From an uncultured Gemmatimonadales bacterium (lineage in GTDB: Bacteria > Gemmatimonadota > Gemmatimonadetes > Longimicrobiales > RSA9), in assembly GCA_963708135.1 (NCBI GenBank), contig OY970192.1, forward strand, positions 96,001-160,000: a stretch of DNA of 64,000 nt, given 5' to 3'. The notes beneath the pieces are model-generated. The model worked only from the letters and a program-made list of their open reading frames with translations. It was not told the origin of the DNA and did no database searches. The position numbers were made by a program, and so were the translations under genes. Each line of letters opens with the position of its first letter. Position 1 is the stretch's first letter. Of this stretch, positions 37,435 through 55,983 are shown piece after piece.

Positions 37435-39702
37435 ATGCAACCCATTCAGCCGACGTCACCCCGGGCCGCCCCACGGCTGGCCGCGACGCGACTCGCCGCA
37501 GCGCTCCTCGCCGGTCTCGCGCTCGCCAGCGCACCGCTCCAGGCGCAGAAGAAGCCGGCGCCGCGGCGGGCGCACGCGGCCGCGCCGGCCGACACCGTCC
37601 CGACCGTGATCCCGAAACGCGGGCTGGTCATCACCCGATCGGTCCGCATCGCGCCCGGTACGTTCCGGCTTCCGGTGCCGCCGGACTCGGCGCTGCTCAC
37701 GATCCGGGGCGACGACATCACGGTGGACTTCGCGGGCGCGACGCTGGAGGGGATCCCGCCGGCTACGGACCCGGACCGGGCGGCGGGCATCGCCGTCCGG
37801 ATCGACGGCGGGACGAACGTGCGCGTCGAGCACGCGGTGATCCGCGGCTACGAGGTGGGGATTCTCGCGCGGGGGACGCGCGGGCTGGCGCTCGTCGCCA
37901 ACGACCTGAGCTACAACTGGAAGCCGCGGCTCTTCAGCGGGATCGAGCACGAGAGCCTCGTGGACTGGCTCAGCCACCACCACAACGAGAAGGATGAGTG
38001 GCTGCGCTTCGGGGCGGCGGCATACCTGGAGGACGTGCGCGGGGGCGAGCTCCGCGGCAACCGGATCGAGCAGGGGATGGAGGGGCTCATGCTCACGCGC
38101 TGCGACAGCGTGCGCATCGTGGGCAACACCATCGCGTTCAACTCGGGGGTGGGGATCGGGCTGTATCGCTCGAGCGGGAACGTGATCACCGGCAACCACG
38201 TGGACTTCAACGTGCGCGGCACGAGCCCCGGCTTCTACCTGCGCGGCCAGGACTCGGCGGACCTGCTGCTGTACGAGCAGAGCTCGGGCAACGTCGTCGC
38301 CTTCAACTCGGTGACGCACGGCGGCGACGGGCTCTTCCTGTGGGCGGGGCAGTCCACGATGGACACGGGCGCGGGCGGCGCGAACGATAACCTGTTCTAT
38401 CGCAACGACTTCAGCTATGCGCCGACGAACGCCATGGAGGCGACGTTCGCGCGCAACACGTTCCTGGAGAACCGCGCGGACGGCTCGACCTACGGCCTGT
38501 GGGGCGGCTACAGCTACGGCTCGTGGATCGTGCGCAACCACTTCGGCGGCGACCGCACGGGCGTGGCGATCGAGCACGGGCAGGAGAACGTGATCGCGGG
38601 CAACACGTTCGAGGACGACTCGACCGCGATCAACCTGTGGGCGAACCCCGTCGAGCGGTCCGACTGGGGCTACCCGAAGCACCACGACACGCGGAGCCGC
38701 GACTACCGGATCTACGACGACACGCTGCGGCGGGTGCGCGTCGGCCTCCGTGTCGCGAACACGAACGGCGTGCGCTTCGCGCGCATCGAGGCAGGCGACG
38801 TCGATACGCTCGTCGCCGGCGACACCGCGGGCGTCGCGGCGACGGACAGCGCCGTGGCGCTCCCGGACCTCACGCTGCCGGAGCCGGACTCGGCCGGGCT
38901 GGATCCCGGGAAGGACCCGCTGGCCCGCCTGCCGCGCTCGGCGATCCTCGTGGACGCGTGGGGCCCGTACGACTTCCGCTCCCCCAAGCTCTGGCCGGTG
39001 GGCGGCCCGCACGCGGTGCCGCTGCCGCTCAGGGTGCTGGGTCCGCGCGGCCTCTGGCGGGTGGTGGAGCAGCGGGGCGTGGCGTCGCTCTCCGACACCA
39101 CGGGCACCACCGGCGACACGGTGGTGGTCACGCCCGCCGAGGGGTCCGAGGGCGACTGGGCGCTCACGCTCGAGTACCGGGGCGCCGCGGTGGTCTCGCC
39201 GCGCGGAAGGACGTGGCGGAAGGGCGAGCCGGTGCGCTTCGGCTACCAGGAGTTCGAGCCGGTCCTGCCGTGGGACGTGCGCTTCTTCGCCTGGTCGGAC
39301 CACACCGACCCGCGCACGCACCCGAAGGAGTTCCAGGCGCTCATCGAGGGGAAGCCCGCCGTGGAGGTCAGGGCGCCGCGGCTGGACTACCTCTGGTACC
39401 GGCCGACGGTCGAGGGGGTGCCGCAGTCGAAGTTCGCGGTGCTCGCGCGCAGCACCGTGACGCTCGGCCCCGGCTTCTACACGCTGCGCGCGATCAGCGA
39501 CGACGCCGTGCGCGTCTGGATCGACGGCAAGCTGGCCATCAACGACTGGGCGCCCCACGAGGCGCGGGTCGACCATGCGCCGATCGGCCCCGGCGAGCAC
39601 CGGCTACGCGTGGAGTACTACCAGGTGGAGGGGTGGACGGACCTGGAGGTGGTGGTGGTCCGGGGGGTCGAGCGGTCGAGGGGCTCGCCCGGCCCGCACT
39701 AG
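37435..39702 (+). CDS. Secreted right-handed beta-helix (NosD/pectin-lyase-like) protein with C-terminal PA14-like domain
   Basis: Signal peptide, repeated I/V-x-G-N-x-I/F coils, C-terminal SDDAVRVWIDGKLAINDW..HRLRVEYYQ. Confidence 0.78.
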   Translation: MQPIQPTSPRAAPRLAATRLAAALLAGLALASAPLQAQKKPAPRRAHAAAPADTVPTVIPKRGLVITRSVRIAPGTFRLPVPPDSALLTIRGDDITVDFAGATLEGIPPATDPDRAAGIAVRIDGGTNVRVEHAVIRGYEVGILARGTRGLALVANDLSYNWKPRLFSGIEHESLVDWLSHHHNEKDEWLRFGAAAYLEDVRGGELRGNRIEQGMEGLMLTRCDSVRIVGNTIAFNSGVGIGLYRSSGNVITGNHVDFNVRGTSPGFYLRGQDSADLLLYEQSSGNVVAFNSVTHGGDGLFLWAGQSTMDTGAGGANDNLFYRNDFSYAPTNAMEATFARNTFLENRADGSTYGLWGGYSYGSWIVRNHFGGDRTGVAIEHGQENVIAGNTFEDDSTAINLWANPVERSDWGYPKHHDTRSRDYRIYDDTLRRVRVGLRVANTNGVRFARIEAGDVDTLVAGDTAGVAATDSAVALPDLTLPEPDSAGLDPGKDPLARLPRSAILVDAWGPYDFRSPKLWPVGGPHAVPLPLRVLGPRGLWRVVEQRGVASLSDTTGTTGDTVVVTPAEGSEGDWALTLEYRGAAVVSPRGRTWRKGEPVRFGYQEFEPVLPWDVRFFAWSDHTDPRTHPKEFQALIEGKPAVEVRAPRLDYLWYRPTVEGVPQSKFAVLARSTVTLGPGFYTLRAISDDAVRVWIDGKLAINDWAPHEARVDHAPIGPGEHRLRVEYYQVEGWTDLEVVVVRGVERSRGSPGPH

Positions 39703-39804
39703 CCGCCGCCGAATTCGAGAGTGGGCGAGTGGGCGAGTGGGGGCGCGGCGGCCCTCGCGGCTCGCCGCGGAGCCCCGGGCGCGGAGCGGCTCGCCGCGTG
39801 CGCG

Positions 39805-39898
39805 CTCTCCCTCTCCCTCTCCCTCTGCTCACCCCAATCCCAATCCACACCCTCCCCCTCCCCCTCACCCTCCCTCGCCCACGCCCTTCCCCTCTCCC
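39805..39898 (+). repeat. C-rich degenerate hexamer repeat tract
   Basis: CTCTCC/CTCCCC/CTCACC/CCAATC units. Inverted homolog of 1630-1730. Confidence 0.8.
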
Positions 39899-40644
39899 TT
39901 CGGAGGGCGAGGGCGGATGTAGCGGATGGCCATGATGACCAGCACGACCGAGAAGACGATCCGCAGCGTCGGCGCGGGGAGGCCGAGCGCGGTATGCCCG
40001 CCCAGGAGTGAGCCGAGGACGATCCCGGCCAGGAGTCCGGGCAGGAGGCCGTGGCGGACGCGGCCGGCGCGGTGGTGGATCAGGCTGCCGGTGATGCCAG
40101 CGGGGACCATGGCGGCGAGAGAAGTGCCCTGGGCGATGTGCTGGTCGAGGCCGACGAGGAGGGCGAGGACGGGGACGAGCAGCACGCCGCCGCCGATACC
40201 GAGCAGGCCCGAGAGCGTCCCCACGATGAGGCCGGTCGCGAGCAGCACGGCCAGGGCGAAGGGGGTGGGGAGCGGCGGGATCGCCGGCAGGTACGATTTG
40301 AGGGGGAGCAGCACGGCCGCGAACAGCAGGAAGGTGCCGAACCCCCGCCGGAGCGAGGCCGCGGAGACACGCCCGGCGTAGTCCGCGGCGATCTGCGCGG
40401 CGGCGACGGACCCGACGGAGATCATGAAGGCGGCGCGCCAGTCCACGGCGTCGCCGGTGGCATAGACCCAGCTGCCGACGAGGCCGGTGAAGACGACGGC
40501 CGAGAGGCTGGTGCCGTGGGCCTCGTGCTGACTGACGTGAGCCCAGCCGGTGAGAAGCGGGACCATGATGACGCCGCCGCCGAGCCCGACCAGCCCGCCG
40601 AAGAAGCCCGCGGCGAGCCCGATGAGGAGAGGGAGCAGGATCAT
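39865..40644 (-). CDS. Sulfite exporter TauE/SafE family
   Basis: Duplicated GLVGLGGG / GLLGIGGG and A(H/Q)GTSL motifs, about 8 TM segments. ATGA overlap with the upstream gene. Confidence 0.92.
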   Translation of the reverse strand: MILLPLLIGLAAGFFGGLVGLGGGVIMVPLLTGWAHVSQHEAHGTSLSAVVFTGLVGSWVYATGDAVDWRAAFMISVGSVAAAQIAADYAGRVSAASLRRGFGTFLLFAAVLLPLKSYLPAIPPLPTPFALAVLLATGLIVGTLSGLLGIGGGVLLVPVLALLVGLDQHIAQGTSLAAMVPAGITGSLIHHRAGRVRHGLLPGLLAGIVLGSLLGGHTALGLPAPTLRIVFSVVLVIMAIRYIRPRPPKGEGKGVGEGG

Positions 40645-41261
40645 GCCTGCGGCGCGGCGCCCTTCTCGACCGCGTAGCCGCGGGCGAGCCAGTCGGTCAT
40701 CCCGCCGAGCACGAGGCGGACCTCGCGGCCGTCGCGCTGCAGGAGCGAGGCGAGGGCGGCGCTGCGCACCTCGTCGCCGCAGATGACGGCGAGCGGCCGG
40801 CCCGGCGGTACCGTGGCCGTCTTCCCCCACGCCTCGGTGTAGGGGAGCAGCGCGGCGCCCGGGATGTGGCCGTACCTGTACTCGAAGGGCTCGCGCGCGT
40901 CGACGACCAGCACGTCCGGGAGGTGGCTCTCGAGCTCGTCCACGGAGATCGGCTCGATGGCGGCCGTGGGCAGGCCAGCCGCGGTCCAGGCGGCGAGGCC
41001 GCCCTCGAGTTGGCCGCGCACGTCGTAGCCGGCGTCGGTCAGGATGCGGGCGGCGATTTTCGCGATCGGCTGCGGCTCTGCGTGGATGACGAGCGGCACG
41101 TCCTTCGGCAGCATCATCTCGGTGCGCTCGGCCAGGTCGGCCCGGTTGAACTGGAGGTTCACCGCGCCGGGGATGTGCGCTGCCGCGAAGGGGCGGGGCG
41201 TGCGCAGATCGATGAGCAGCGCGCCGTCCTCCACGGCGGCGTGGACGTCTGCGGGACTCAT
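40641..41261 (-). CDS. Tandem rhodanese-domain sulfurtransferase (inactive first domain, Cys-containing second domain)
   Basis: IDLR..F..AHIPGA / VDAR..EY..GHIPGA and LEGGLAAW / LGGMTDW. Active loop CGDEVRS only in domain 2. Confidence 0.9.
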   Translation of the reverse strand: MSPADVHAAVEDGALLIDLRTPRPFAAAHIPGAVNLQFNRADLAERTEMMLPKDVPLVIHAEPQPIAKIAARILTDAGYDVRGQLEGGLAAWTAAGLPTAAIEPISVDELESHLPDVLVVDAREPFEYRYGHIPGAALLPYTEAWGKTATVPPGRPLAVICGDEVRSAALASLLQRDGREVRLVLGGMTDWLARGYAVEKGAAPQA

Positions 41262-42046
41262 GCGGGCACCTCCTGGCCGGGGGCGGGGAGTCCGAGGTTG
41301 GCGGCCTTGATGCGCTCGAAGTCCTTGGGGAACGGCTTGGCCGACTCCTTCACGAACGCGGCGAAGCTCTCGGCGTCCGGCTGGCGCATGGCCAGGTTGA
41401 AGCGGCGCTCGAAGCCAATGGTGGAGCTGACCTTGCCGCTCATGTTGACGCCGCCGCAGGCGGAGGCGCCGTAGTGGTTCGGGTAGATCTCGACGTGGTC
41501 GGGGAGCGAGAACAGCTTGCCGCGGATGGACTCCCACTGGGTGCGCGCCCGCTCGCCCTGGTCGATCATGTCGATGGCCTGGTCGCCGAGCAGAAGATCG
41601 GGGCGGCCGACGTCGCCGACGAAGAGCGAGTCGCCGGTGAGCACGAGCCACGGCTCGTCGGTGCGGGCGTGGTCGGTCACCAGGAAGGCGGTATGCTCGG
41701 GCGTGTGGCCGGGCGTGTGGACCGCCTTGACCTCGACCTCGCCGATGCGCAGCGCCTGGCCGTCCTCGAGCGGCGTGAACGGATACTTCACGGGCGCCGA
41801 GGCGTGCAGGTAGTGCGGGGCGCCCGCCATCTCGGCGAGCTCGCGCGCGCAGGAGATGAAGTCCGCGTGCACGTGCGTCTCGAGCACGCCGACGATGGCC
41901 AGGTTGAGGTCCGCGGCCTCCAGCACGTAGAACTCGGTGCCGAGGTTGGCGATCGGATCCACGACGAGGCCCTCCTTCGCGCGCATGCAGCCGATGATGT
42001 AGGAGGCCTGCGCCAGCGGCTCGTAGCGGATCTGCTTGAAGATCAC
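41258..42046 (-). CDS. MBL-fold persulfide dioxygenase-like protein (CstB/Blh type)
   Basis: ETHVHADF, TPGHTPEH, TGDSLFVGDVGRPDL and YPNHYGASACG motifs. GTG start overlaps the tusA stop. Confidence 0.88.
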   Translation of the reverse strand: MIFKQIRYEPLAQASYIIGCMRAKEGLVVDPIANLGTEFYVLEAADLNLAIVGVLETHVHADFISCARELAEMAGAPHYLHASAPVKYPFTPLEDGQALRIGEVEVKAVHTPGHTPEHTAFLVTDHARTDEPWLVLTGDSLFVGDVGRPDLLLGDQAIDMIDQGERARTQWESIRGKLFSLPDHVEIYPNHYGASACGGVNMSGKVSSTIGFERRFNLAMRQPDAESFAAFVKESAKPFPKDFERIKAANLGLPAPGQEVPA

Positions 42047-42291
42047 GGCTCCTCCTCGCCGCAGCGGACGTAGAACACGAAGCAGCCGCCCTCCTCGCCG
42101 GAATGAAGCAGCTCGTTGCCGGTGTCCTCCGCCCAGGCGGGGAAATCGGCCACCGAGCCGCGGTCGGTGGCGAGGATCTTCAGCACCTGTCCCGGGGCCA
42201 GGCCCTTGATGGCCTTCGAGGCCTTCACGATGGGCATCGGGCAGAGTAGCCCGCGGGCGTCCAGCACCTGGTCTTCGCGGAAATCGGCCAC
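42043..42291 (-). CDS. tusA: TusA family sulfur carrier
   Basis: LDARGLLCPMP (CPxP), ILATDRGS..DFPAW. Confidence 0.92.
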   Translation of the reverse strand: MADFREDQVLDARGLLCPMPIVKASKAIKGLAPGQVLKILATDRGSVADFPAWAEDTGNELLHSGEEGGCFVFYVRCGEEEP

Positions 42292-42361
42292 GATTCCCTC
42301 CTCGCTCGGGTCCACCGCCGGGCGCGGCCGGACGCCCGGCCGCGCGCGGCACCGGCCGTCT

Positions 42362-42967
42362 CTAGACGAACAGCGTCACGTGCGCGCGCCTTGCCTCCGA
42401 CAGGAAGGCGGCCGCGCCGGCGAACTCGACGCCGGGCAGGAAGTCGCGCTCCGTGAAGCCGAACACCTCCATGGTCATCTGGCAGGCGATGAGGCGGACC
42501 CCGGTTTCGCGCGCGGCGTCGAGCAGCTCGCGGATCGTGGCCACCCCCTTGCCCCTGAACATCGATTTCATCATGGACGTCGCCATGGTCTGCATCCCCG
42601 GCATGGCCGTGAGCAGGTCCGGCATCGGAACGGGCATCGGCATGGCGGGATTGCCCACCGGCGAGACCCGCAGCCGCTTCTCGAAGTCGCGGTGGATGAT
42701 GTTCAGCCCGTAGAAGGTGAAGAACACCGCCGTCTCCATCCCCGCCGCCGCGGCCGCCGTGGCCAGGATCAGCGGCGGGTAGGCGAAGTCGAGGGTGCCC
42801 TTCGAGGCGATGATGCAGGTCTTGCGGGCGGCCGGGTCCTTCCGAAACGCACGCGCCACCTCCTCGCGCACGATGCGCCGCACGTCCTCCTCGGTGAGCG
42901 CGGCCGCCTGGGTGGCGATGCCGCCTCCGGCGACGCCGCCGTTGCCCGGATCCTTGCGCTCAGGCAT
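42362..42967 (-). CDS. DsrE/DsrF/DrsH-like (DsrE2-type) sulfurtransferase
   Basis: SKGTLD, FFTFYGL, IACQMTM, GAAAFL and C-terminal TLFV. Confidence 0.9.
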   Translation of the reverse strand: MPERKDPGNGGVAGGGIATQAAALTEEDVRRIVREEVARAFRKDPAARKTCIIASKGTLDFAYPPLILATAAAAAGMETAVFFTFYGLNIIHRDFEKRLRVSPVGNPAMPMPVPMPDLLTAMPGMQTMATSMMKSMFRGKGVATIRELLDAARETGVRLIACQMTMEVFGFTERDFLPGVEFAGAAAFLSEARRAHVTLFV

Positions 42968-43856
42968 GGCTCGGCTCCCTCCTCTCGTCCTCTCGTGCCC
43001 GGCGCGACGCCCGGCGCAGGCCGCCGAGCGCGCGTGTCGTCTGCATGGCGCGGTTGCGCCAGAACGCCGCGATCGGCCCCAGCGCCCGGGGCGCCGTCGT
43101 GTAGCGATCGGCCCGGCGGGCGGCCTCCTCCGCGAACCAGCGGAGCGTGGCCACCGCATCCTGCCGGAGCATGCTCTCGAGCGCGTAGCGCCGCTCGGCC
43201 ACCCGCAGCCCCAGCCCGAGAGCGCGGGCGCCCCGGGCCAGGTCGGCGCGGGCGAGCACCAGCCCGCTCCGCGCCGGCGCGAGCAGGGCGGCCGTCAGCT
43301 CGTGCAGCGAGCCGGCCAGGACGCCCGCGTCGAGCGGCGGCGTCTCGCGCAGGTGGATCGGCAGCGTCTCGGGCGGGCCGAGGCGCTCGGCCTCGGCGAC
43401 GAGGGCGTCCCGGAGCAGCGCGCCCCACGCCGCGTAGCACGGCGGGCCGAGCGCCTCCACGCGCTCCAGGTACGGGATCAGCCAGGAGGCGAGGTGCTCC
43501 CAGAGGAGCGCGTGGCGGGCGCGGCGCCGCAGCGCGCGGCGGGCGGCGTCGCCTTCCGCATTCTCCGCCTCGGCCAGCGCCGCGGCGAGCGAGAGCAGCG
43601 CGGCCAGGTGATCCGGCTCCGCGGGCGGCACGGCGCCGATGGCGCGCCAGAAGCCGGCCACGCGCCCGGCCGCCTCGCCGCCCATCATCCCCTCCGGCCC
43701 GAGGTAGATCGAGGCGTACGGCTGGAGCTGCAGCACGAACAGCGCGGTGTGCGCCTCCGCGTCAGGCAGCGGCGGCAGGCGCAGCAGCCGGGCCACGCGT
43801 CGGCGCTCCCGGTCGGGCGGCTCGGCCAGCGCGCCGAGGGCGCGGAGCAGCTCCAT
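42960..43856 (-). CDS. TorD/DmsD family molybdoenzyme maturation chaperone
   Basis: PYASIY, EPDHLA and EHLASW motifs. Stop/start overlap with the catalytic subunit gene. Confidence 0.85.
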   Translation of the reverse strand: MELLRALGALAEPPDRERRRVARLLRLPPLPDAEAHTALFVLQLQPYASIYLGPEGMMGGEAAGRVAGFWRAIGAVPPAEPDHLAALLSLAAALAEAENAEGDAARRALRRRARHALLWEHLASWLIPYLERVEALGPPCYAAWGALLRDALVAEAERLGPPETLPIHLRETPPLDAGVLAGSLHELTAALLAPARSGLVLARADLARGARALGLGLRVAERRYALESMLRQDAVATLRWFAEEAARRADRYTTAPRALGPIAAFWRNRAMQTTRALGGLRRASRRAREDERREPSHA

Positions 43857-46798
43857 CAGCGCGGCTCCTTCCCGGCGCCGGCGAAGGCCACGGGCTCGGG
43901 CAGCCGGTACGCCTCGCGGGTCGGGCGGAGCGGGCGCATGAGCCACCAGGGCCGGCGCGAGCCGTCGGGCGAGACGGCGCCGGCGGGGCGCGCGTGGCCG
44001 AGCCAGCGGCGGTAGACGTCGTGGGCGCGGGCCGTGTCCACGGCGATGTCGCCTGCGGCATCGCCGGGTTCAGCCCTGCGCACGCGCACGGCCTGGTGCC
44101 AGCAGTGGGCGCCGGACACGGGGTCGGGCTGCACGGCAAAGGTCAGGTTCTGGTGGACCCCCACGTCCGTCCACCAGATGCGCAGCGTGTCCGGGTCGGC
44201 GGAGGCGAAGGGGCCGACGCCGGCGCGGCGGTGCAGCGCCCACGCGTCGCCGGTGTGCTCCAGGCCGACGGTGGCCATGCTCTGGCGCTGCCCGGGGCCA
44301 GCCAGCTTCCAGCGGCCCATGTGGTGGCTGCACGCGACGACGCCCGGCCGGATCCCCTCGGTGACCCAGACCTTCACGACGAAATGACCGATCTCCGTCT
44401 CGACCCGCGCGAGGTCCCCCGTACGGAGGCCGAGGCGCTCGGCGTCCCGGGTGTGCAGCCAGAGCGGGTTCGTGTGCGCGATCTCGTCCAGCCACTTGGC
44501 GTTTCCGCTGCGGGTGTGGATCTGGACGGGGACGCGGAACGTGGAGATCAGCGGCATCTGGTCCGGCTCGAGCGCGTCGGGATGAATATGGCTTCGAATG
44601 TAGGTGGGGAGCGCGTACTCCGGCCAGCCCCACGCCACGAGCGTCGGGGAGTAGAACTCGAGGCGGCCGCTCGGGGTGGGGAAGCCGCGCAGCAGCCGGC
44701 CATCGACCTCGACGCCGACGGGGCGGCGGCCTTCCGCGTCCGGCTCCGGCGCGGGCTGTGGCACGATGTTGGGCGAGTCCGGCTTCGGCGCCCGGGTGTA
44801 GGCGCGGCCGTGGCGGCCGACGTGCACGTCGTCGCGCTCCGATGCCGGCACCTCCTGCTCGTGGAGCGGCCCGACCCCCTTCGTCACCTCGAAGGCGCCG
44901 TAGCGGCGCATGTACTCGAGCGGGGTGAGGCCCTCGGCGGCGGCCTTCTCGGGAAGGCCCGGGACGGAGTTCTCGAACATCCAGCCGTAGTACTCGTCGA
45001 CGGTCAGCTTCTCGCCGGGACGGGCGCGGGACTCAAACCAGCGGCGGATGCCGAGGGAGCCGTCGGGGTCGATGCGCCAGGAGAGCTCGATCCAGAACTC
45101 GTTCTCCTCCCATACCTCGCCCGGGTTCACGTCCCGCGTGTCGGCGATGCGCTCGCCGGCGCGCTCCCGCGCCGCGCGCAGCACCGGCTGGCGGAATCCG
45201 ATCCACTGCCCGTCGTACTGCTCGTAGGAGTGGACGTCGTGGCGCTCGGAGCCGAGGCCCATGGGCAGGATGAGGTCGGCGAAGTAGGCGGTCTCGTTCC
45301 ACGTGGGGGTGAGCGCCACGTGCAGCCCGATCTTCGAGGTGTCCGTCAGCATCTCGACCCAGGAGAAGCCGTCCGGGTTCGTCCAGACCGGGTTGTAGAC
45401 GCGCGTGATGTAGACGTCGAGCCGGCCGCGGCCATCCTTCACGAGGTGCGGCAGCAGGAAGGACATCTCGAACATGCCGAGCGGGTACTCCGCGGGCCAG
45501 GAGAGGTCGTTCCAGACGTCGGGGTGCGGCGGCAGATGGATCGGCCGCGGCACGAACTTGTTCCAGCCGTTGGGATAGGTCGATCCGGGCACGGCCACGG
45601 CGCCCATGAGCGCGCTCAGCATGAAGAGCGCGCGCGAGACCTGCCAGCCGCCGAGGTTGCCGGCCGCGGCGCTCCTCCAGTTGTGAGTGGCCAGGCGGGT
45701 CCCGGCCGAGGCGACGAGGTCGGCGACCTGCTCGAGCACCGCGGCGTCCACGCCGCTCTCGCGCGCGGCGAAGTCGAAGGTGTAGTCCTGGTAGATCTCG
45801 GCCAGCACGGTCTCGAAACGGTGGAACGAGGCCTCGAGCCCCGGCTGCTCGTGCTCGAGGTACTCGGCCCAGTTCCACCAGCGGCGCACGAACTCGCGGT
45901 CGTAGCGGCGGCCGACGATCAGGTGGCGCGCGATGGCCAGGAAAATGGCGGCCTCGGAGCCGGGATACGGCGCCAGCCAGTGGTCGGCGTGGGTGGCGGT
46001 GTTGGAGAGGCGGGTATCGAGGACGACGAGCCTGGCGCCCTTCTCCCTCGCCTCGATGATCCGCTGCGCGTGGGGGTTGAAGTAGTGGCCGGCCTCGAGA
46101 TGGCTGCTCACGAGCAGGATCACGCGGGCCTCCGCGTGGTCCGGGCTGGGCCGGTCGAGGCCCATCCAGTAGTGGTAGCCGGCGCGCGCGCCAGCGGAGC
46201 AGACGTTGGTGTGCGAGTTGTGGGCGTCGAGCCCCCAGGCGGCCAGGACGCGCTCGGTGAAGCCGTCCTCGCCCGGCCGGCCCACATGGTACATCACCTC
46301 GCCCTGGCGCTCCTCGAGGATGGCGGCGCGGATCCGGCCGGCGAGCGTGTCGAGCGCCTCGTCCCAGGTCGTGCGTACCCAGCGTCCCTCGCCGCGTGCG
46401 CCGGCGCGCTTGAGCGGGAAGAGGATGCGGTCCGGATCGGTGACCTGGTTCAACGTGGCCGGCCCCTTGGCGCAGTTGCGGCCGCGCGAGCCCGGGTGCT
46501 CCGGGTTCCCCTCGAAGCGGCGTACCTGGAGCGTCTCGCGGTCGACGTAGGCCAGGAGCCCGCACGCGGACTCGCAGTTGAAGCAGGTGGTCGGCACGAG
46601 GGCGTAGCGCCGCTCGACGCGGCGCGGCCAGGCCCTGGAATCGAGCTCGACCCAGTCGTCCCAGCGCTCCTTCGGCGGGAACGCCGCCAGGTGGACACGG
46701 CTGGGCCCGGGATAGAACGTCTCCCCGCGCGCCTCGACCTCCGCGCGCGCCGCGGAGACCCGCTCGTTCAGTCGGTCGAGATCGGCTGGCCTGGTCAT
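43856..46798 (-). CDS. Bis-MGD molybdopterin oxidoreductase catalytic subunit (Psr/Phs/Arr/Ttr-like), no Tat peptide
   Basis: FS0 motif CFNCESAC..CAKG, DPDRILFPLKR, predicted Mo-ligand region SHTNVCS, ETAYFADLILP, C-terminal Molydop_binding domain. AGAAGGA RBS. Confidence 0.92.
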   Translation of the reverse strand: MTRPADLDRLNERVSAARAEVEARGETFYPGPSRVHLAAFPPKERWDDWVELDSRAWPRRVERRYALVPTTCFNCESACGLLAYVDRETLQVRRFEGNPEHPGSRGRNCAKGPATLNQVTDPDRILFPLKRAGARGEGRWVRTTWDEALDTLAGRIRAAILEERQGEVMYHVGRPGEDGFTERVLAAWGLDAHNSHTNVCSAGARAGYHYWMGLDRPSPDHAEARVILLVSSHLEAGHYFNPHAQRIIEAREKGARLVVLDTRLSNTATHADHWLAPYPGSEAAIFLAIARHLIVGRRYDREFVRRWWNWAEYLEHEQPGLEASFHRFETVLAEIYQDYTFDFAARESGVDAAVLEQVADLVASAGTRLATHNWRSAAAGNLGGWQVSRALFMLSALMGAVAVPGSTYPNGWNKFVPRPIHLPPHPDVWNDLSWPAEYPLGMFEMSFLLPHLVKDGRGRLDVYITRVYNPVWTNPDGFSWVEMLTDTSKIGLHVALTPTWNETAYFADLILPMGLGSERHDVHSYEQYDGQWIGFRQPVLRAARERAGERIADTRDVNPGEVWEENEFWIELSWRIDPDGSLGIRRWFESRARPGEKLTVDEYYGWMFENSVPGLPEKAAAEGLTPLEYMRRYGAFEVTKGVGPLHEQEVPASERDDVHVGRHGRAYTRAPKPDSPNIVPQPAPEPDAEGRRPVGVEVDGRLLRGFPTPSGRLEFYSPTLVAWGWPEYALPTYIRSHIHPDALEPDQMPLISTFRVPVQIHTRSGNAKWLDEIAHTNPLWLHTRDAERLGLRTGDLARVETEIGHFVVKVWVTEGIRPGVVACSHHMGRWKLAGPGQRQSMATVGLEHTGDAWALHRRAGVGPFASADPDTLRIWWTDVGVHQNLTFAVQPDPVSGAHCWHQAVRVRRAEPGDAAGDIAVDTARAHDVYRRWLGHARPAGAVSPDGSRRPWWLMRPLRPTREAYRLPEPVAFAGAGKEPR

Positions 46799-46877
46799 CG
46801 CTTCCTTCTCCCGGCGCGGCCGGTCCGGCCGGCGCGGTGGGTCATGGCGTGCGTCATCGATCCCTCTCCCGGCCCGG

Positions 46878-48401
46878 TCACGCCAGCGGCACGGCCTGGC
46901 CCGCCTGCACGTAGGCGTGCTCGTAGGCCAGCACGCCGGCGAGGGCGGCGGCGGCGGTCCACGCGCCGAGCCACGGCGCGCCGATGGCGACGAGCGAGAG
47001 CACGAGCCCCGCGCGGTACCAGAGCGCGTACCGTCCGCTGGTGAGCTCGTGCGCCGCGAGGGCCGCGTGGGCGCTCGCGTGCGGCAGGGCGTGCTCCGCG
47101 AGCAGGAGGAGCAGGTGCGCGAGCGCGCCGCCGCCCACGACGCGCAGGAGCGCCGGCGTCGCGGCCGGTTCGAGCGCGAGCGCCACGGGCACCAGCGCCG
47201 CGGCGCCGAGCAGCACGGCCTGCGCCAGCAGGTGCACGGGAGCGAGCGGGCTCTGCCAGAGGTCGCGGCCCCGCGCCTGCGCGAACAGGAACGCGGTATA
47301 GGCGGCGGTGGCGGCCGCGAGCGGACCGCCGAGCGCCGCGAGCGGCCCTGCCCATCCGGGCGCCCCCGCCAGGGCCGCGACGAAGTGGGCGAGCAGCACG
47401 AGCGCGTAGGCGCCGATGATGAAGCCGCCGCGCACCAGCCAGCTGCGCCACTGCGGGCGGGTGAACAGGTAGTGGAACCGCTCCGGGTGCTCGAGGTCCA
47501 AGATGAGGATCGCGCCCGTGGCGGCCAGGAAGGCGCCGGCCAGCACGGGAGCGGCCCACAGCCAGAGCGGATCGCGGCCGCCGAGGGCGCCCGCCAGCAC
47601 GAGCAGCAGGGGCACGAGGTAGGCGCCCGCGGCGATCCCCTTGGTCCACGTGTAGAGGCCGACGCGCCAGTCCCAGGGCGCGCGGTGGGCCACGTCGTAG
47701 CTGAGCAGCGCCGCCGCCGAGCTGTTCGGCCGGCCCGGATGGCCGGCGGGCACCACGTGCGCGCCGGCCGGCTGCTCGGCCCACATGTACAGCCCGCCGT
47801 CGGGGCGGCGCGCCGCGAGCGGGTCGAGCGTGGCCTGGTGGGCGCCGCGGTAGAACAGCTTCGGGCGCGTCCCTTTCTCCGGGCGCCTGACCTGGACGGC
47901 ATCGCGCTGCACGATGGCCGCCACCTTCGAGCGCGGATCGTCCAGGTCCCCGACCAGGATGGCCTCCGCCGGGCACACCACGACGCAGGCCGGCTCGAGC
48001 CCCACCTCCAGCCGGTGCGCGCACAGGTTGCATTTCTCGGCCGCGTGGTCGTCGGGGTTGATGAAGATCGCGTCGTAGGGGCAGGCTGCGATGCACGCCT
48101 TGCAGCCGATGCAGATGGACTTGTCGAAGTCCACGATGCCGTCGGGCCGCTGGTGCATGGCGGCCGTCGGGCAGGCGGCCACGCACGGCGCGTCCTCGCA
48201 CTGGTTGCAGCGCGTGACCTGGAAGGCGCGGCGCGCCTCCGGGAAGACGCCCACGTCCACGTACTTCACGTACGTGCGGGTCACCGACAGCGGAACGCGG
48301 TTCTCGGACCTGCACGCCGTCGTGCACGCGTGGCAGCCGATGCAGCGGGTCTGGTCGATAACCTTCCCCCAGCGGACCGTCGGCGCGGCCGCGGCTTCCA
48401 T
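46878..48401 (-). CDS. Fusion of a 4x[4Fe-4S] ferredoxin subunit and a NrfD/PsrC membrane anchor
   Basis: CIGCHACTTAC, CNQCEDAPCVAACP, CIGCKACIAACP and CNLC..PACVVVCP, followed in frame by WDWRVGLYTWTKG, DLEHPERF and multiple TM helices. Confidence 0.9.
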   Translation of the reverse strand: MEAAAAPTVRWGKVIDQTRCIGCHACTTACRSENRVPLSVTRTYVKYVDVGVFPEARRAFQVTRCNQCEDAPCVAACPTAAMHQRPDGIVDFDKSICIGCKACIAACPYDAIFINPDDHAAEKCNLCAHRLEVGLEPACVVVCPAEAILVGDLDDPRSKVAAIVQRDAVQVRRPEKGTRPKLFYRGAHQATLDPLAARRPDGGLYMWAEQPAGAHVVPAGHPGRPNSSAAALLSYDVAHRAPWDWRVGLYTWTKGIAAGAYLVPLLLVLAGALGGRDPLWLWAAPVLAGAFLAATGAILILDLEHPERFHYLFTRPQWRSWLVRGGFIIGAYALVLLAHFVAALAGAPGWAGPLAALGGPLAAATAAYTAFLFAQARGRDLWQSPLAPVHLLAQAVLLGAAALVPVALALEPAATPALLRVVGGGALAHLLLLLAEHALPHASAHAALAAHELTSGRYALWYRAGLVLSLVAIGAPWLGAWTAAAALAGVLAYEHAYVQAGQAVPLA

Positions 48402-48719
48402 TCCCGACTCCTCTCCTGGGGGGCGTCTCACGGGTGTGGGGATGCGACACCGCCGCCGCGTCTTCGGAGGCGGGGAAGTCGGCGTCCGGGCCGGAATGGT
48501 CACGGTCGCGCGCTCGTTTGTCAAACCCGGGGCGGCGACCTCCGGCAGCGGGCCGGCGCGGCGGCCGCTGGCATGGCCCCTGCACCCTGCCATCGTTCGC
48601 TCGCCCAACGCTTTCCAGGAGGCTCTCACGATGCGCACGATGCCGCCGGACCCAGCCGGGCGGGAGGGCGCGCCCCCGCTCCGCCGCCGGCCCGGCCGGG
48701 GCGGGGAAGGCGTGGCGTG

Positions 48720-52405: not shown

Positions 52406-52846
52406 TCACGCCTCCGGGTCGATGAGGTCGAGTCCCGTGGTCTCATCCTTCCGCCGTCGCAGCGCTGCCGGGTCCTCCGTGAGCATCAACTCCAGCGTCG
52501 GCCGGACGTGCGCCTCCAGCAGGTGCCCGCCCATGGCGCTGCCGTCGCGGCGGGCCACGACCACGTGCGCGTGGACCATGGCCGAGCCGTCCTCCTTGCG
52601 CGCCACGTTGCCGACGAGGGAGACCACCTCGACCTGCTCATCGACGGGGTTCTCCTCGTAGCTCCTGGTGTCCCAGTTCCAGTAGCCGAGCTTCGCATCC
52701 CGGAAGGCCCCCAGGGCCGTGAAGTGGGCGCCGTCGAGGTCGTTCTCCTCGGCGAAGCGGGTGAGGGTGTCGTTCACCTCGTCGCCGATCTCGAAGATGA
52801 GCGCGTAGGTGCGCTCCGTGCCACTGTCGAGCAGCTTGGACTTCAT
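52406..52846 (-). CDS. DUF296 / PPC domain protein
   Basis: EVVSLVGNV, HAHVVV and GGHL motifs. ATGA overlap. Confidence 0.88.
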   Translation of the reverse strand: MKSKLLDSGTERTYALIFEIGDEVNDTLTRFAEENDLDGAHFTALGAFRDAKLGYWNWDTRSYEENPVDEQVEVVSLVGNVARKEDGSAMVHAHVVVARRDGSAMGGHLLEAHVRPTLELMLTEDPAALRRRKDETTGLDLIDPEA

Positions 52847-55800: not shown

Positions 55801-55983
55801 GTTCGAGGCGTCCGCGGCCCACAGCGCACGGTCGCCGTCGCCGAAGCGGACTTCGCCGCGCAGCGTGGCCGAGAGCTCCGCCTCGAGCGCGGCGACATCG
55901 ACCTCGGCCGCGCCGGCCCGGGGCGCCGGGCCCACGCCCAGCATCCGCCCGCGCCGCCGCTGGGCCGCCCCGGGGAGGCTCAT
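52843..55983 (-). CDS. FAD-binding and Fe-S-binding oxidoreductase (YdiJ / fused D-lactate/glycolate dehydrogenase-like)
   Basis: DASNY, RGGGTS, GGMIGNNSCG, GTEG, SGEHGDG, CVGVGKC, CLACKGCKGDCP and two CCG domains. Confidence 0.92.
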   Translation of the reverse strand: MSLPGAAQRRRGRMLGVGPAPRAGAAEVDVAALEAELSATLRGEVRFGDGDRALWAADASNYRQPPIGVVLPRDVEDIVEAVRIAHRHGAPVLPRGGGTSLGGQCCNHAVVIDTSKYVNDVLEVNAKERWARVQPGTILDDLRDAAGEHGLTYGPDPATHNHCVLGGMIGNNSCGIHSVMAEFYGPGPRTEHQVLELEVLTYDGVRMRVGPTAEDELERIIAAGGRKGEIYRDLRDLRDRYAEDIRTGYPDILRRVSGYNLYWLLPENGFNVARALVGTEGTCVFVLEARVTLIENPRARSLVVMGYDDVYDAASHVTRIRDFKPIGLEGIDDNLINDMKEKGLRVEDLDLLPDGNGWLLVEFRGDTKEEADTSARACMAALEAEKNPPAMRLYDDDEKESKVWEVRESGLGATAFIPGDPDTWPGWEDSAVPVDSVAPYLRDLRQLFDKYGYQCSLYGHFGQGCIHTRIDFDLTSADGIERYQAFTREAAELVVHKYGGSLSGEHGDGQARGDLLDVMYGPRLVQAFRDFKRTWDPDWKMNPGKVVDPYARVQNLRLGEDYAPWTPETHFSFPQDQGSFAHATLRCVGVGKCRRKGGGTMCPSYQVTMEEKDTTRGRAHLLFEMLQGEVITDGWKSEEVKDSLDLCLACKGCKGDCPVNVDIATYKAEFLSHYYEGRLRPRYAYAFGLIMVWARIAKRIPRLVNFLTHAPGLKRVAHAVAGITPERQIPMFADHTFRDWFGERAPVNQGHVPVILWPDTFNNHFFPETLIAATEVLESAGFQVIVPKAQLCCGRPLYDYGMLDLAKRFLERIVDELRPAIRSGVRVVGLEPSCTSVFRDELIGMLPHDEDAKRLRDQTCTLAEFLTERAPESFSLPNMEGMRAIVHGHCHHKAIMKMGPEKKVLNALGLDFEELQSGCCGLAGSFGFEQGHYDVSMAIGEQVLLPAARNADRDTVLVADGFSCREQVMEGAGRRPLHLAELIRLGMNRQRLPAAGEPPERRLDRLTPPQVRRSTRSPAALAIGVGATLALAGGITWLMKRNGKDR

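What the first reader, a model, noticed from the sequence alone, without database searches (positions are those of the whole stretch)
39865..48401. Candidate new sulfur-processing system: cst-like persulfide module wired to a Tat-less Psr/Arr-family molybdoenzyme instead of SQR
Seen: eight co-oriented genes in the order FeS-NrfD fusion, bis-MGD catalytic subunit, TorD-like chaperone, DsrE2, TusA, MBL-fold dioxygenase, tandem rhodanese, TauE. Five of the seven junctions have overlapping stop/start codons (43856, 42960-42967, 42043-42046, 41258-41261, 40641-40644). Known: the Staphylococcus aureus cst operon combines TauE, CstA (rhodanese-TusA-DsrE/TusD), CstB (persulfide dioxygenase-pseudorhodanese-rhodanese) and SQR. 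The same domain set is present here, but no SQR gene is seen in the window. Inference: a quinone-linked molybdoenzyme fills that slot. It could run as a sulfide/polysulfide:quinone oxidoreductase feeding persulfides to TusA/DsrE, oxidise the sulfite made by the dioxygenase (SoeABC-like), or reduce thiosulfate. Any of these would link cytoplasmic sulfane-sulfur handling to respiration in a probable Gemmatimonadota heterotroph.
Basis: partly seen in the sequence, partly recalled or inferred. Interest (0 to 1): 0.82.

Follow-up and report, generated by a model that had tools for sequence, protein, structure and literature searches.

The report
Persulfide-to-sulfate operon with inward molybdoenzyme
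Eight tightly packed genes most likely turn reactive sulfur inside the cell into sulfite and then sulfate, using a very widespread but never tested membrane molybdenum enzyme that faces the cell interior; it is a compact example of a gene layout already seen, not a new kind of system.

Summary
Eight co-oriented minus-strand genes (39865-48401) have the stated domains, and five of seven junctions overlap.

The molybdoenzyme lacks a Tat signal. Its FeS subunit is fused to an eight-helix NrfD anchor, so it faces the cytoplasm.

It belongs to a highly conserved family, 70-81% identical across Gemmatimonadota, Actinomycetota, Chloroflexota and Acidobacteriota. In 49 related loci with full flanks the commonest neighbours are:
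- a SulP sulfate-type permease (22);
- a CstB-like persulfide dioxygenase (13);
- DsrE2 (8) and TusA (8).

SulP replaces TauE in two near-identical operons. A type II SQR sits in the same gene row in L018.

The enzyme therefore probably oxidises sulfite to sulfate and passes the electrons to quinone, like SoeABC. It does not replace SQR.

The fused psrBC-psrA, Tat-less layout was published for green sulfur bacteria and others, with sulfite oxidation proposed (PMC3906813). This scan has noted the family on other DNA many times.

I could not place it against a real SoeA sequence, and no activity has been shown. Verdict: a new variant of a known kind, moderate interest.

The parts
46878..48401 (-). 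FeS-NrfD fusion (507 aa). An N-terminal four-cluster ferredoxin domain equivalent to PsrB/SoeB is joined to an eight-helix NrfD/PsrC-type quinone anchor. It has no signal peptide.
   Evidence: Pfam Fer4_11 and NrfD. 16 Cys in four motifs. AlphaFold model with eight helices between residues 245 and 502; most 10-residue blocks of the NrfD part score pLDDT 85 or more, while the FeS part is poorly modelled. Foldseek finds 2vpw_B (46% identity) for the FeS part and 2vpw_C (TM 0.76 on the target) for the anchor. K+R count in loops is 6 on the FeS side against 1 on the other side.
43856..46798 (-). bis-MGD catalytic subunit (980 aa), Tat-less. It has the FS0 motif C72-x2-C75-x3-C79...C108 and Cys200 as the likely Mo ligand.
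   Evidence: Pfam. NCBIfam best hit is PhsA at 177 bits against a 694 cut-off. Best solved relatives are PsrA 2vpw_A (114 bits) and ArrA (98 bits), and Cys200 aligns with their active-site Cys. The family clade has SH-aLRT 100.
42960..43856 (-). TorD/NarJ-family maturation chaperone (298 aa). Only residues 34-126 match the family.
   Evidence: Pfam Nitrate_red_del, E 1e-10. A homolog was detected in 70 of 80 related loci, and in the rows printed it lies just after the MoA gene.
42362..42967 (-). DsrE2-type sulfur carrier (201 aa).
   Evidence: Pfam DrsE_2, E 6e-51. NCBIfam SulfCarrDsrE2 199.7 bits against a 210 cut-off.
42043..42315 (-). TusA sulfur carrier (90 aa) with a CPMP cysteine motif. 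The GTG start is the longest reading and is not certain.
   Evidence: Pfam TusA, E 1e-22. Sequence.
41258..42046 (-). CstB-type (type III-like) persulfide dioxygenase domain as a separate 262-aa protein.
   Evidence: PDB sequence hits 3tp9 (165 bits), 3r2u (138 bits), and the PDOs 4ysb, 4chl and 5ve3. The HxHADF motif is shared with 3tp9 and 3r2u in the printed alignments.
40641..41261 (-). Tandem rhodanese (206 aa). The first domain has no active-site Cys; the second has a CGDEVRS loop. It corresponds to the C-terminal half of CstB.
   Evidence: Pfam shows two rhodanese stretches. It hits residues 282-473 of 3tp9. The split from the MBL gene is also seen in L013, L062 and L068.
39865..40644 (-). 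TauE/SafE-family anion exporter (259 aa).
   Evidence: Pfam TauE, E 8e-46. A SulP permease holds the same last position in L062 and L068.
48402..48719 (.). 318-bp divergent intergenic region upstream of the first gene; presumed promoter region. It holds no regulator gene, unlike L013, where an ArsR gene sits here.
   Evidence: Sequence. The consensus scan found no promoter-like site. ArsR lies upstream in L013, L015, L046, L056, L061 and L065.

Best explanation
The eight genes form one operon for a cytoplasmic route from sulfane sulfur to sulfate.

Proposed steps:
1. The rhodanese, TusA and DsrE2 pick up persulfide sulfur and pass it on.
2. The CstB-like non-heme-iron dioxygenase, here split from its two rhodanese domains, oxidises the persulfide with O2 to sulfite. 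Some of this may be trapped as thiosulfate.
3. The Tat-less bis-MGD enzyme oxidises sulfite to sulfate on the cytoplasmic face. A TorD-like chaperone matures this enzyme.
4. The electrons pass through FS0 and the four clusters of the fused FeS domain to menaquinone in the eight-helix NrfD anchor, as in SoeABC.
5. TauE exports the anionic end product.

Shown here: gene content, order and coupling; cytoplasmic orientation; the fused B-C architecture; a conserved Cys at the Mo-ligand position; recurrence of the neighbourhood.

Inferred: the substrate (sulfite), the direction of electron flow, the quinone type, what TauE carries, and co-transcription.
For: 1. Orientation and architecture. Neither MoA nor the FeS protein has a Tat signal. 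The FeS domain is fused directly in front of helix 1 of an eight-helix NrfD domain. Loop K+R is 6 on the FeS side against 1 on the other.

2. Neighbours in 80 related loci from many phyla. Counts are for the 49 loci with at least 5 kb on both sides, with all 80 in brackets:
- SulP sulfate-type permease: 22 (30).
- CstB-like PDO: 13 (22).
- DsrE2: 8 (15).
- TusA: 8 (13).
- TauE: 3 (3).
- Type II SQR: 3 (3).
- ArsR: 7 (11).
- CsoR-like: 3 (3).
- Any of SulP, PDO, DsrE2, TusA, TauE or SQR: 31 of 49.

3. SulP lies within 2.5 kb downstream of the TorD gene on the same strand in 22 of the 28 loci that have both.

4. L013 has ArsR plus the same eight genes. L062 and L068 have the same row with SulP in TauE's position. 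The own genome has no SulP.

5. L018 reads SQR, PDO-Rhd, FeS-NrfD, MoA, TorD, SulP in one direction. This puts the Mo enzyme after the dioxygenase rather than in the SQR step.

6. More distant relatives keep the sulfur context. R. jostii RHA1 pRHL3 (59%) has DsrE-TusA-fusedBC-MoA with MBL genes, ArsR genes and trxA nearby. T. roseum (62%) has a CsoR-family regulator next to fusedBC-MoA.

7. No DsrA was found in the own genome, and no SoxB above cut-off, so this operon is the only dedicated sulfane-oxidising gene set found.

8. Literature:
- SoeABC is a cytoplasm-facing sulfite:quinone oxidoreductase (passages of PMC8076601).
- Tat-less PsrA with fused psrBC in B-C-A order is described for green sulfur bacteria, Marine Group A, Haladaptatus and Caldilinea, and was proposed to oxidise sulfite (passages of PMC3906813; PMC9324843).
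Against: - No enzyme of this family has been assayed, and no paper found in my searches reports one.
- I could not obtain any characterised SoeA sequence, so the placement relative to SoeA is untested.
- Published KEGG-type surveys report SoeC only in Proteobacteria, three Clostridia and five Aquificae. One reports soeABC as absent from Sulfopaludibacter SbA3, although L006, a MAG of that name, has a 71% homolog. The family is therefore not what annotation calls Soe.
- 34 of 49 loci have no PDO, DsrE2 or TusA nearby, and 18 of 49 have no sulfur-related neighbour at all.
- In the phylum sample, 9 of 30 genomes with the Mo enzyme lack a CstB-like PDO. PDO is nearly as common without the enzyme, at 70 of 121 genomes; that count includes the unpublished genomes G357 and G397.
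- CstB-type enzymes are reported to release thiosulfate rather than free sulfite (recalled, Shen et al. 2015).
- SulP and TauE carry many anions.
- The own genome also has one sulfite-oxidase-fold gene.
- The 80 loci are the best-scoring 80 of 693 and include close kin, so the counts are descriptive only.
Confidence: 0.57

Rival explanations
1. The molybdoenzyme takes the place of SQR. It oxidises sulfide or polysulfide at the cytoplasmic face, reduces quinone, and hands sulfane sulfur to TusA/DsrE2.
For: No SQR or FCSD homolog was found in the own genome with a type II SQR query. In the phylum sample, 21 of 30 genomes with the Mo enzyme have no SQR-like hit, including all 14 of family f2. The closest solved relative is a polysulfide-reductase-type enzyme, 2vpw. 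DsrE2 and TusA follow the TorD gene directly here and in at least 9 of the loci printed.
Against: SQR and the Mo enzyme sit in one gene row in L018 and within 8 kb in L008 and L025. All 5 other sampled genomes with the close split dioxygenase on the Mo enzyme's contig also have an SQR-like gene. The commonest neighbour is an anion permease, not a sulfur carrier. Only one SQR type was used as the query, so other types could have been missed.
Confidence: 0.08
2. The enzyme handles another inorganic sulfur anion on the cytoplasmic side. Examples are thiosulfate made by the CstB-like enzyme (oxidised, or formed from sulfide plus sulfite in a reverse Phs reaction), or tetrathionate or polysulfide reduction with quinol.
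For: The best NCBIfam hit is PhsA, and the best solved relatives are PsrA and ArrA. CstB-type enzymes release thiosulfate (recalled). TauE and SulP would suit any sulfur oxyanion.
Against: PhsA scores 177 bits, far under its 694 cut-off. In the tree the family lies apart from the named PhsA and from the Tat-bearing Psr-like clade; the superclade has SH-aLRT 100. A quinol-driven reductase facing the cytoplasm would not conserve energy, which is an inference. The carriers are mostly aerobic soil lineages by their record titles.
Confidence: 0.15
3. The substrate is not a sulfur compound (an organic acid, a metalloid oxyanion or an N/S-oxide), and the sulfur genes are only frequent neighbours.
For: 18 of 49 loci have no sulfur-related neighbour. 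Longimicrobiales loci instead carry M20 peptidase, gamma-glutamyltranspeptidase, cupin and NUDIX genes. Earlier notes of this scan report look-alike inward-facing enzymes read as PadBCD-like (untested leads).
Against: Sulfur-linked neighbours recur across Gemmatimonadota, Actinomycetota and Chloroflexota, and in the more distant RHA1 and T. roseum clades. Stop-start overlaps couple TorD to dsrE2 here.
Confidence: 0.08

Closest known systems
SoeABC sulfite:quinone oxidoreductase (Allochromatium vinosum, Aquifex aeolicus, Ruegeria pomeroyi)
   Same: A three-module complex iron-sulfur molybdoenzyme: a bis-MGD subunit with FS0 and a Cys ligand, a four-cluster FeS module and an eight-helix NrfD anchor. 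There are no Tat signals, so the active site is on the cytoplasmic side. It lies downstream of a sulfite-producing step.
   Different: The B and C modules are one polypeptide encoded upstream of A. A TorD-like chaperone gene is attached. The carriers are Gemmatimonadota, Actinomycetota, Chloroflexota and Acidobacteriota, which published SoeC surveys do not list. Sequence relatedness to SoeA was not measured here, and activity is untested.
[quoted passage not shown] 2011; Wright et al. 2014)
   Same: Fused psrBC, Tat-less PsrA, B-C-A gene order, spread across phyla and into haloarchaea, and a proposed sulfite-oxidising role (passages of PMC3906813). My superclade likewise holds Natrinema and Thermomicrobium fused forms.
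   Different: No sequence from those organisms was compared here, so membership of the same clade is inferred from layout and taxa only. Those complexes are discussed next to Dsr, not next to a persulfide dioxygenase, TusA, DsrE2 and TauE.
Staphylococcus aureus cst operon (CstR, CstA, CstB, SQR, TauE)
   Same: TauE; a CstB-like dioxygenase with pseudo-rhodanese and rhodanese domains (3r2u, 138 bits; that 3r2u is CstB is recalled); TusA and DsrE-family domains.
   Different: CstB is split into two genes. The CstA domains are separate proteins: DsrE2, TusA, and the rhodanese sits with the CstB half. There is no CstR in the window and no SQR in the genome. A respiratory molybdoenzyme is added.
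rhd-tusA-dsrE2 sulfur-relay gene set of sulfur oxidisers (A. vinosum; recalled, Stockdreher et al. 2014)
   Same: The same three carrier families lie side by side.
   Different: Here they would feed a dioxygenase, not rDsr or sHdr. No DsrA was found in the genome.
PsrABC polysulfide reductase of Thermus thermophilus (2VPW-2VPZ)
   Same: It is the closest solved structure for all three modules.
   Different: PsrA is Tat-exported and periplasmic, and B and C are separate chains. The catalytic subunit shares only 114 bits over residues 70-315.

Membership tests
SoeABC sulfite:quinone oxidoreductase | DMSO-reductase-family bis-MGD catalytic subunit with an N-terminal [4Fe-4S] (FS0) motif and a Cys Mo ligand | tested here: met
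   Three Pfam domains. The C72/C75/C79/C108 motif, and Cys200 aligned to the active-site Cys of PsrA and ArrA. That this Cys is the Mo ligand in PsrA is recalled.
SoeABC sulfite:quinone oxidoreductase | No Tat signal on A or B; the peripheral subunits are on the cytoplasmic (N) side | tested here: met
   N-termini read directly and compared with Tat-bearing relatives. The fusion topology and the K+R bias of 6 against 1 agree.
SoeABC sulfite:quinone oxidoreductase | Three separate subunits: SoeA, SoeB and SoeC | tested here: not met
   B and C are one 507-aa protein here, and a full-length FeS-NrfD match was found in 70 of the 80 related loci.
SoeABC sulfite:quinone oxidoreductase | Catalytic subunit falls in the SoeA clade | not testable with these tools
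   No SoeA sequence could be fetched. Published surveys do not list these phyla for SoeC.
SoeABC sulfite:quinone oxidoreductase | Sulfite-dependent quinone reduction | not testable with these tools
   This needs a biochemical assay.
PsrABC / PhsABC polysulfide or thiosulfate reductase | Tat-exported catalytic subunit, periplasmic active site | tested here: not met
   No twin-arginine signal.
PsrABC / PhsABC polysulfide or thiosulfate reductase | Scores above the curated PhsA model cut-off, or groups with named PhsA | tested here: not met
   NF012032 scores 177 bits against a 694 cut-off. In the tree the named PhsA lies outside the 26-row group that holds the family (SH-aLRT 80), and the family's own 20-row superclade is separated at SH-aLRT 100. 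This was a quick tree, and PhsA sits on a long branch.
Fused psrBC-psrA cytoplasmic PSR (PSRLC3-type) | psrBC gene fusion, Tat-less PsrA, B-C-A order | tested here: met
   against the description in passages of PMC3906813.
Fused psrBC-psrA cytoplasmic PSR (PSRLC3-type) | Sequence clade shared with the green-sulfur-bacterial, Marine Group A and Haladaptatus proteins | not tested
Fused haloarchaeal (Natrinema) and Thermomicrobium forms do fall in the same superclade.
cst operon (S. aureus type) | CstB: persulfide dioxygenase with pseudo-rhodanese and rhodanese domains | tested here: met
   It is split into two genes. 3tp9 and 3r2u hit the MBL part, and the C-terminal half of 3tp9 hits the rhodanese gene. 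The first rhodanese domain lacks the Cys.
cst operon (S. aureus type) | SQR and the CstR (CsoR-family) repressor in the operon | tested here: not met
   No SQR homolog was found in the genome, and no regulator lies in the flanks. The only CsoR-like hit lies far away, at genome position 3.94 Mb.

The most novel reading that the evidence does not exclude
The bis-MGD enzyme does not act on free sulfite. Instead it acts on sulfur still bound to the carriers encoded right after its chaperone gene (TusA or DsrE2 persulfide) and oxidises it stepwise by oxygen-atom transfer from water, passing the electrons to quinone. That would make it a cytoplasmic, O2-independent 'sulfane dehydrogenase', analogous in logic to SoxCD (recalled). 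It would give these aerobes an anoxic bypass of the O2-dependent dioxygenase. Nothing here excludes this. The dsrE2-tusA pair follows the TorD gene directly in this window and in at least 9 of the loci printed, and precedes the fused gene in RHA1. Against it, most loci have the enzyme without these carriers nearby.
Probability: 0.08. Interest if true: 0.85.

Novelty: new variant of a known kind. Interest (0 to 1): 0.42.

Why it matters
Close homologs of this enzyme are very common.
- They occur in at least 693 species-representative genomes.
- They occur in 122 of 301 sampled genomes of one Gemmatimonadota class. I equate that class with the window's own because the hit coordinates repeat in the phylum search.
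- All 8000 scored protein clusters matched.

Source annotations give only generic names, and sulfur-cycle surveys do not report these phyla as carrying Soe.

If the enzyme is a sulfite:quinone oxidoreductase, then soil and sediment heterotrophs have a respiratory sulfite sink that current metagenome annotation misses. Sulfur-oxidation budgets such as 'SoeABC not detected' (PMC12345210) would then need re-reading.

This operon, and the SQR-containing L018 version, are compact, testable statements of the whole route from persulfide (or sulfide) to sulfate.

Tried and rejected
1. All of these failed:
- NCBIfam has no SoeA model that hits.
- The names among 120 + 120 listed homologs are generic.
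- Cluster look-up of 10 representatives gave no useful name.
- The ESM Atlas gave generic names.
- PLSDB tblastn found only 9 full-length relatives, none from a known Soe organism.
- The A. vinosum plasmid record opened only the plasmid, handle W01, with no match.
- P0122 (48% identity, Tat-less) turned out to be a lone divergent member and not SoeA.

2. The 'class of G001' search was meant to sample Gammaproteobacteria. It sampled the window's own class instead, because the MAG labelled Gammaproteobacteria groups there.

3. RNA evidence: no RNA holder was listed.

4. The promoter/terminator consensus scan found 0 promoter-like sites and 1 terminator-like site inside the MoA gene, no more than in the shuffles. 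It is uninformative at 72% G+C.

It was redone on a GC3-filtered set. That filter sometimes picks the antisense frame, so the neighbour counts were redone by tblastn.

6. Gregersen et al. 2011 is not held. Only one small supplementary file of Wells et al. 2023 is held as text, with no hit; its other supplements may list the taxa of the 'bSreA/SoeA' lineage.

7. The FeS domain of the model is poorly folded (pLDDT under 50 for most of residues 1-242). Only the NrfD part and the sequence-level match to PsrB are used.

8. The genome-wide association between the Mo enzyme and PDO is weak: 21 of 30 genomes with the enzyme against 70 of 121 without. It is not used as support.

Full report
**What is there**

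Eight genes lie on the minus strand between 39865 and 48401. Pfam and NCBIfam give the following.

| Window coordinates | Size | Identity |
|---|---|---|
| 48401-46878 | 507 aa | ferredoxin domain with 16 Cys in four cluster motifs, joined to an NrfD domain |
| 46798-43856 | 980 aa | molybdopterin oxidoreductase: Fe4S4, Molybdopterin and Molydop_binding domains |
| 43856-42960 | 298 aa | TorD/NarJ-family protein |
| 42967-42362 | 201 aa | DsrE2 (199.7 bits, cut-off 210) |
| 42315-42043 | 90 aa | TusA |
| 42046-41258 | 262 aa | MBL-fold protein |
| 41261-40641 | 206 aa | two-domain rhodanese |
| 40644-39865 | 259 aa | TauE |

Five junctions overlap: TGATG, ATGCCTGA, GTGA, ATGA and ATGA. The other two are gaps of 79 and 46 nt.

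The neighbours on both sides are on the other strand and unrelated. One side has a NosD/beta-helix protein. The other has a phosphoribosyltransferase, an iron permease and a CLC channel. The window holds no regulator gene next to the cluster.

**The molybdoenzyme faces inward**

Its N-terminus (MTRPADLDRLNERVS...) has no twin-arginine motif and no hydrophobic stretch. More distant relatives (P0125, P0143, P0175) begin with RRxFLK-type signals.

The FeS protein starts directly with its first cluster motif. An AlphaFold model built on 34 sequences gives eight helices between residues 245 and 502. Most 10-residue blocks of this part score pLDDT 85 or more. The FeS half is poorly modelled.

Foldseek matches the FeS half to PsrB (2vpw_B, 46% identity). 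It matches the anchor to PsrC (2vpw_C, TM 0.76 on the target) and to ActC of alternative complex III.

Loops on the FeS side hold 6 Lys+Arg, against 1 on the other side. Because the FeS domain has no signal and is fused in front of helix 1, it must be cytoplasmic.

Cys200 aligns with the active-site Cys of PsrA and ArrA, and the FS0 motif is present.

**The family**

- All 8000 scored candidates matched. The best 120 are 72-81% identical and carry only generic names.
- In species-representative genomes, 693 of 698 pattern hits encode a relative. The best 80 are 70-81% identical. They come from Gemmatimonadota, Actinomycetota (including a Mycobacterium and a Micromonospora), Chloroflexota/Dormibacterota, Acidobacteriota, Planctomycetota, Eremiobacterota and Bacillota MAGs.
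- In an even sample of the window's class, 122 of 301 genomes have a homolog of 58-77% identity.
- In a phylum sample with completeness of at least 80%, 30 of 151 genomes have it. The distribution is patchy: family f2 14 of 16, f4 11 of 72, f5 1 of 31.
- More distant fused forms are on the T. roseum megaplasmid (62%), R. jostii RHA1 pRHL3 (59%) and haloarchaeal plasmids (49-53%).

I built a quick maximum-likelihood tree of 29 rows.
- The family is one clade (SH-aLRT 100).
- It sits inside a superclade (SH-aLRT 100) with those fused forms and three Tat-bearing proteins.
- That superclade lies apart from a Tat-bearing Psr-like clade and from named PhsA, DmsA and NapA.
- PhsA, DmsA and NapA sit on long branches.
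- No SoeA, TtrA, ArrA or PsrA sequence was in the tree.

**Neighbours**

I searched the 80 loci with the window's eight proteins and with representatives of the recurrent neighbour families. FeS-NrfD was found in 73 of 80 loci and TorD in 70 of 80.

| Neighbour | 49 loci with at least 5 kb on both sides | All 80 loci |
|---|---|---|
| SulP permease with STAS domain | 22 | 30 |
| CstB-like PDO | 13 | 22 |
| DsrE2 | 8 | 15 |
| TusA | 8 | 13 |
| TauE | 3 | 3 |
| Type II SQR | 3 | 3 |
| CsoR-like | 3 | 3 |
| ArsR | 7 | 11 |
| LysR | 6 | 8 |

In the 49 loci, 31 have at least one of SulP, PDO, DsrE2, TusA, TauE or SQR, and 15 have PDO, DsrE2 or TusA.

SulP lies just after the TorD gene on the same strand in 22 of the 28 loci that have both.

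Gene orders are telling:
- L013 (81% identity) is ArsR plus the window's eight genes.
- L062 and L068 are the same row with SulP where TauE stands.
- Several actinobacterial loci read SulP-PDO/Rhd, then divergently ArsR-FeSNrfD-MoA-TorD-DsrE2-TusA.
- L018 reads SQR-PDO/Rhd-FeSNrfD-MoA-TorD-SulP in one direction.

The L018 flavoprotein is a type II SQR (372 bits to human SQOR).

These 80 loci are the top-scoring ones and include close kin, so the counts describe and do not test.

**The sulfur half**

- The MBL protein matches 3tp9 (165 bits) and 3r2u (138 bits) over its whole length and shares their HxHADF motif. It also hits known persulfide dioxygenases (4ysb, 4chl, 5ve3).
- The rhodanese gene matches the C-terminal half of 3tp9. 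Its first domain lacks the catalytic Cys, and its second has it.
- Together the two genes are a split CstB-type enzyme. The split is shared by L013, L062 and L068.
- TusA has the CPMP motif.

**The whole genome**

- No SQR or FCSD homolog was found with the L018 query.
- No SulP.
- No DsrA.
- No SoxB above cut-off.
- One sulfite-oxidase-fold gene.

**SQR slot or sulfite step?**

In the phylum sample, 9 of 30 genomes with the Mo enzyme have an SQR-like gene, against 23 of 121 without it. So many carriers lack SQR.

However, all five other genomes with a close (67-70%) split dioxygenase on the Mo enzyme's contig do have an SQR-like gene elsewhere. These are G412, G363, G409 and G449, where it lies 1.5-2 kb away, and G324, where it lies 7 kb away. 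L018 has SQR in the same row.

The enzyme also occurs without any CstB-like PDO in 9 of 30 genomes. The PDO counts include the unpublished genomes G357 and G397.

The enzyme is therefore an independent module. Its most constant partner is an anion permease, and in the fullest operons it stands after the dioxygenase. That fits sulfite to sulfate better than sulfide to sulfane.

**Literature**

- SoeABC is described as a sulfite:quinone oxidoreductase with its AB subunits on the N-side. SoeC is reported only in Proteobacteria, three Clostridia and five Aquificae (passages of PMC8076601).
- Wells et al. describe bSreA/SoeA as a large lineage that nearly vanishes on 50% clustering (passages of PMC10100899). 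That resembles this family's conservation but proves nothing.
- Wright et al. describe Tat-less PsrA with a psrBC fusion in B-C-A order in green sulfur bacteria, Marine Group A, Marine Group II, Haladaptatus and Caldilinea. They cite the proposal that the cytoplasmic complex oxidises sulfite (passages of PMC3906813; also PMC9324843).
- For the dioxygenase-plus-SoeABC route in Beggiatoa I saw only the search listing and the start of the abstract (PMC11507549).
- Dahl et al. 2013, Gregersen et al. 2011, Frigaard and Bryant 2008, Shen et al. 2015 and Stockdreher et al. 2014 were not seen. They are cited through other papers or recalled.
- None of my nine literature searches turned up an assay of this family.

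**Earlier notes of this scan**

Searches show that the same fused, inward-facing family was noted on other genomes many times. One word search alone returned 22 findings. The notes usually read it as a probable sulfite oxidiser that is not canonical SoeABC. They pointed me to the psrBC literature, which I then read myself. They are leads, not evidence.

**Verdict**

Most likely (about 0.57) this is a single operon for cytoplasmic oxidation of persulfide sulfur to sulfite and then sulfate:
1. Rhodanese, TusA and DsrE2 relay the sulfur.
2. The split CstB-type dioxygenase makes sulfite.
3. A Soe-like, fused-anchor molybdoenzyme passes two electrons to quinone.
4. TauE exports the product.

The substrate, the direction of electron flow and co-transcription are inferred.

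Main gaps: no comparison with a real SoeA, no expression data and no biochemistry.

It is a new variant of a known kind. It matters mainly because the enzyme family is so common and so poorly annotated.

Noticed in passing
outside the window: genome C1:1816764-1817375 (locus L120 8765-9382): A second tandem-rhodanese gene, 75% identical to the operon's, lies alone among IS91-type and DDE transposase genes. A further 42-residue fragment (83% identical) lies at 1821244-1821369.
   Followed up: partly
outside the window: genome C1, about 5311552-5312271 (locus L121 5552-6271): One open frame joins an ArsR-type HTH to a rhodanese domain. It may be a sulfane-sulfur-sensing regulator, and it could control the regulator-less operon in trans.
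   Followed up: partly
L013 5937, L004 1842, L015 6091, L061 6028, L065 6104: ArsR genes lie directly upstream of the fused FeS-NrfD gene. The Gemmatimonadota type has a Cys in the 'IKCLGHP' helix and a C-terminal CIRSC. The actinobacterial type has only a C-terminal CxxC-like pair. Thiol-based sensing like SqrR/BigR is plausible; that comparison is recalled.
   Followed up: partly
window 39700-39864: A G/A-rich low-complexity stretch (GGGAGAGGGAGAGGGAGAG and similar) lies just downstream of TauE. The TauE C-terminus itself ends in a Gly/Glu/Lys-rich tail.
   Followed up: no
L020 / G001: A MAG whose record title says Gammaproteobacteria groups with the window's own Gemmatimonadota class in the genome tool. 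The same hit coordinates recur under different handles.
   Followed up: partly
window 52846-57201 (-): A long open frame (1452 aa from stop to stop) carries FAD-oxidase, 4Fe-4S and CCG domains. It looks like a GlcD-GlcF-type fusion. The real start was not determined.
   Followed up: no
L082 (R. jostii RHA1 pRHL3) and L115 (Natrinema halophilum plasmid): In the more distant fused clades, an Mrp/NBP35-family ATPase gene follows the catalytic subunit gene where the TorD-like gene stands in this family.
   Followed up: no
Longimicrobiales loci L033, L036, L037, L039, L041, L044, L054: Here the three-gene core sits among M20 peptidase, gamma-glutamyltranspeptidase, cupin, NUDIX and LVIVD-repeat genes, not among sulfur carriers. 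This may link the enzyme to glutathione or cysteine breakdown.
   Followed up: no
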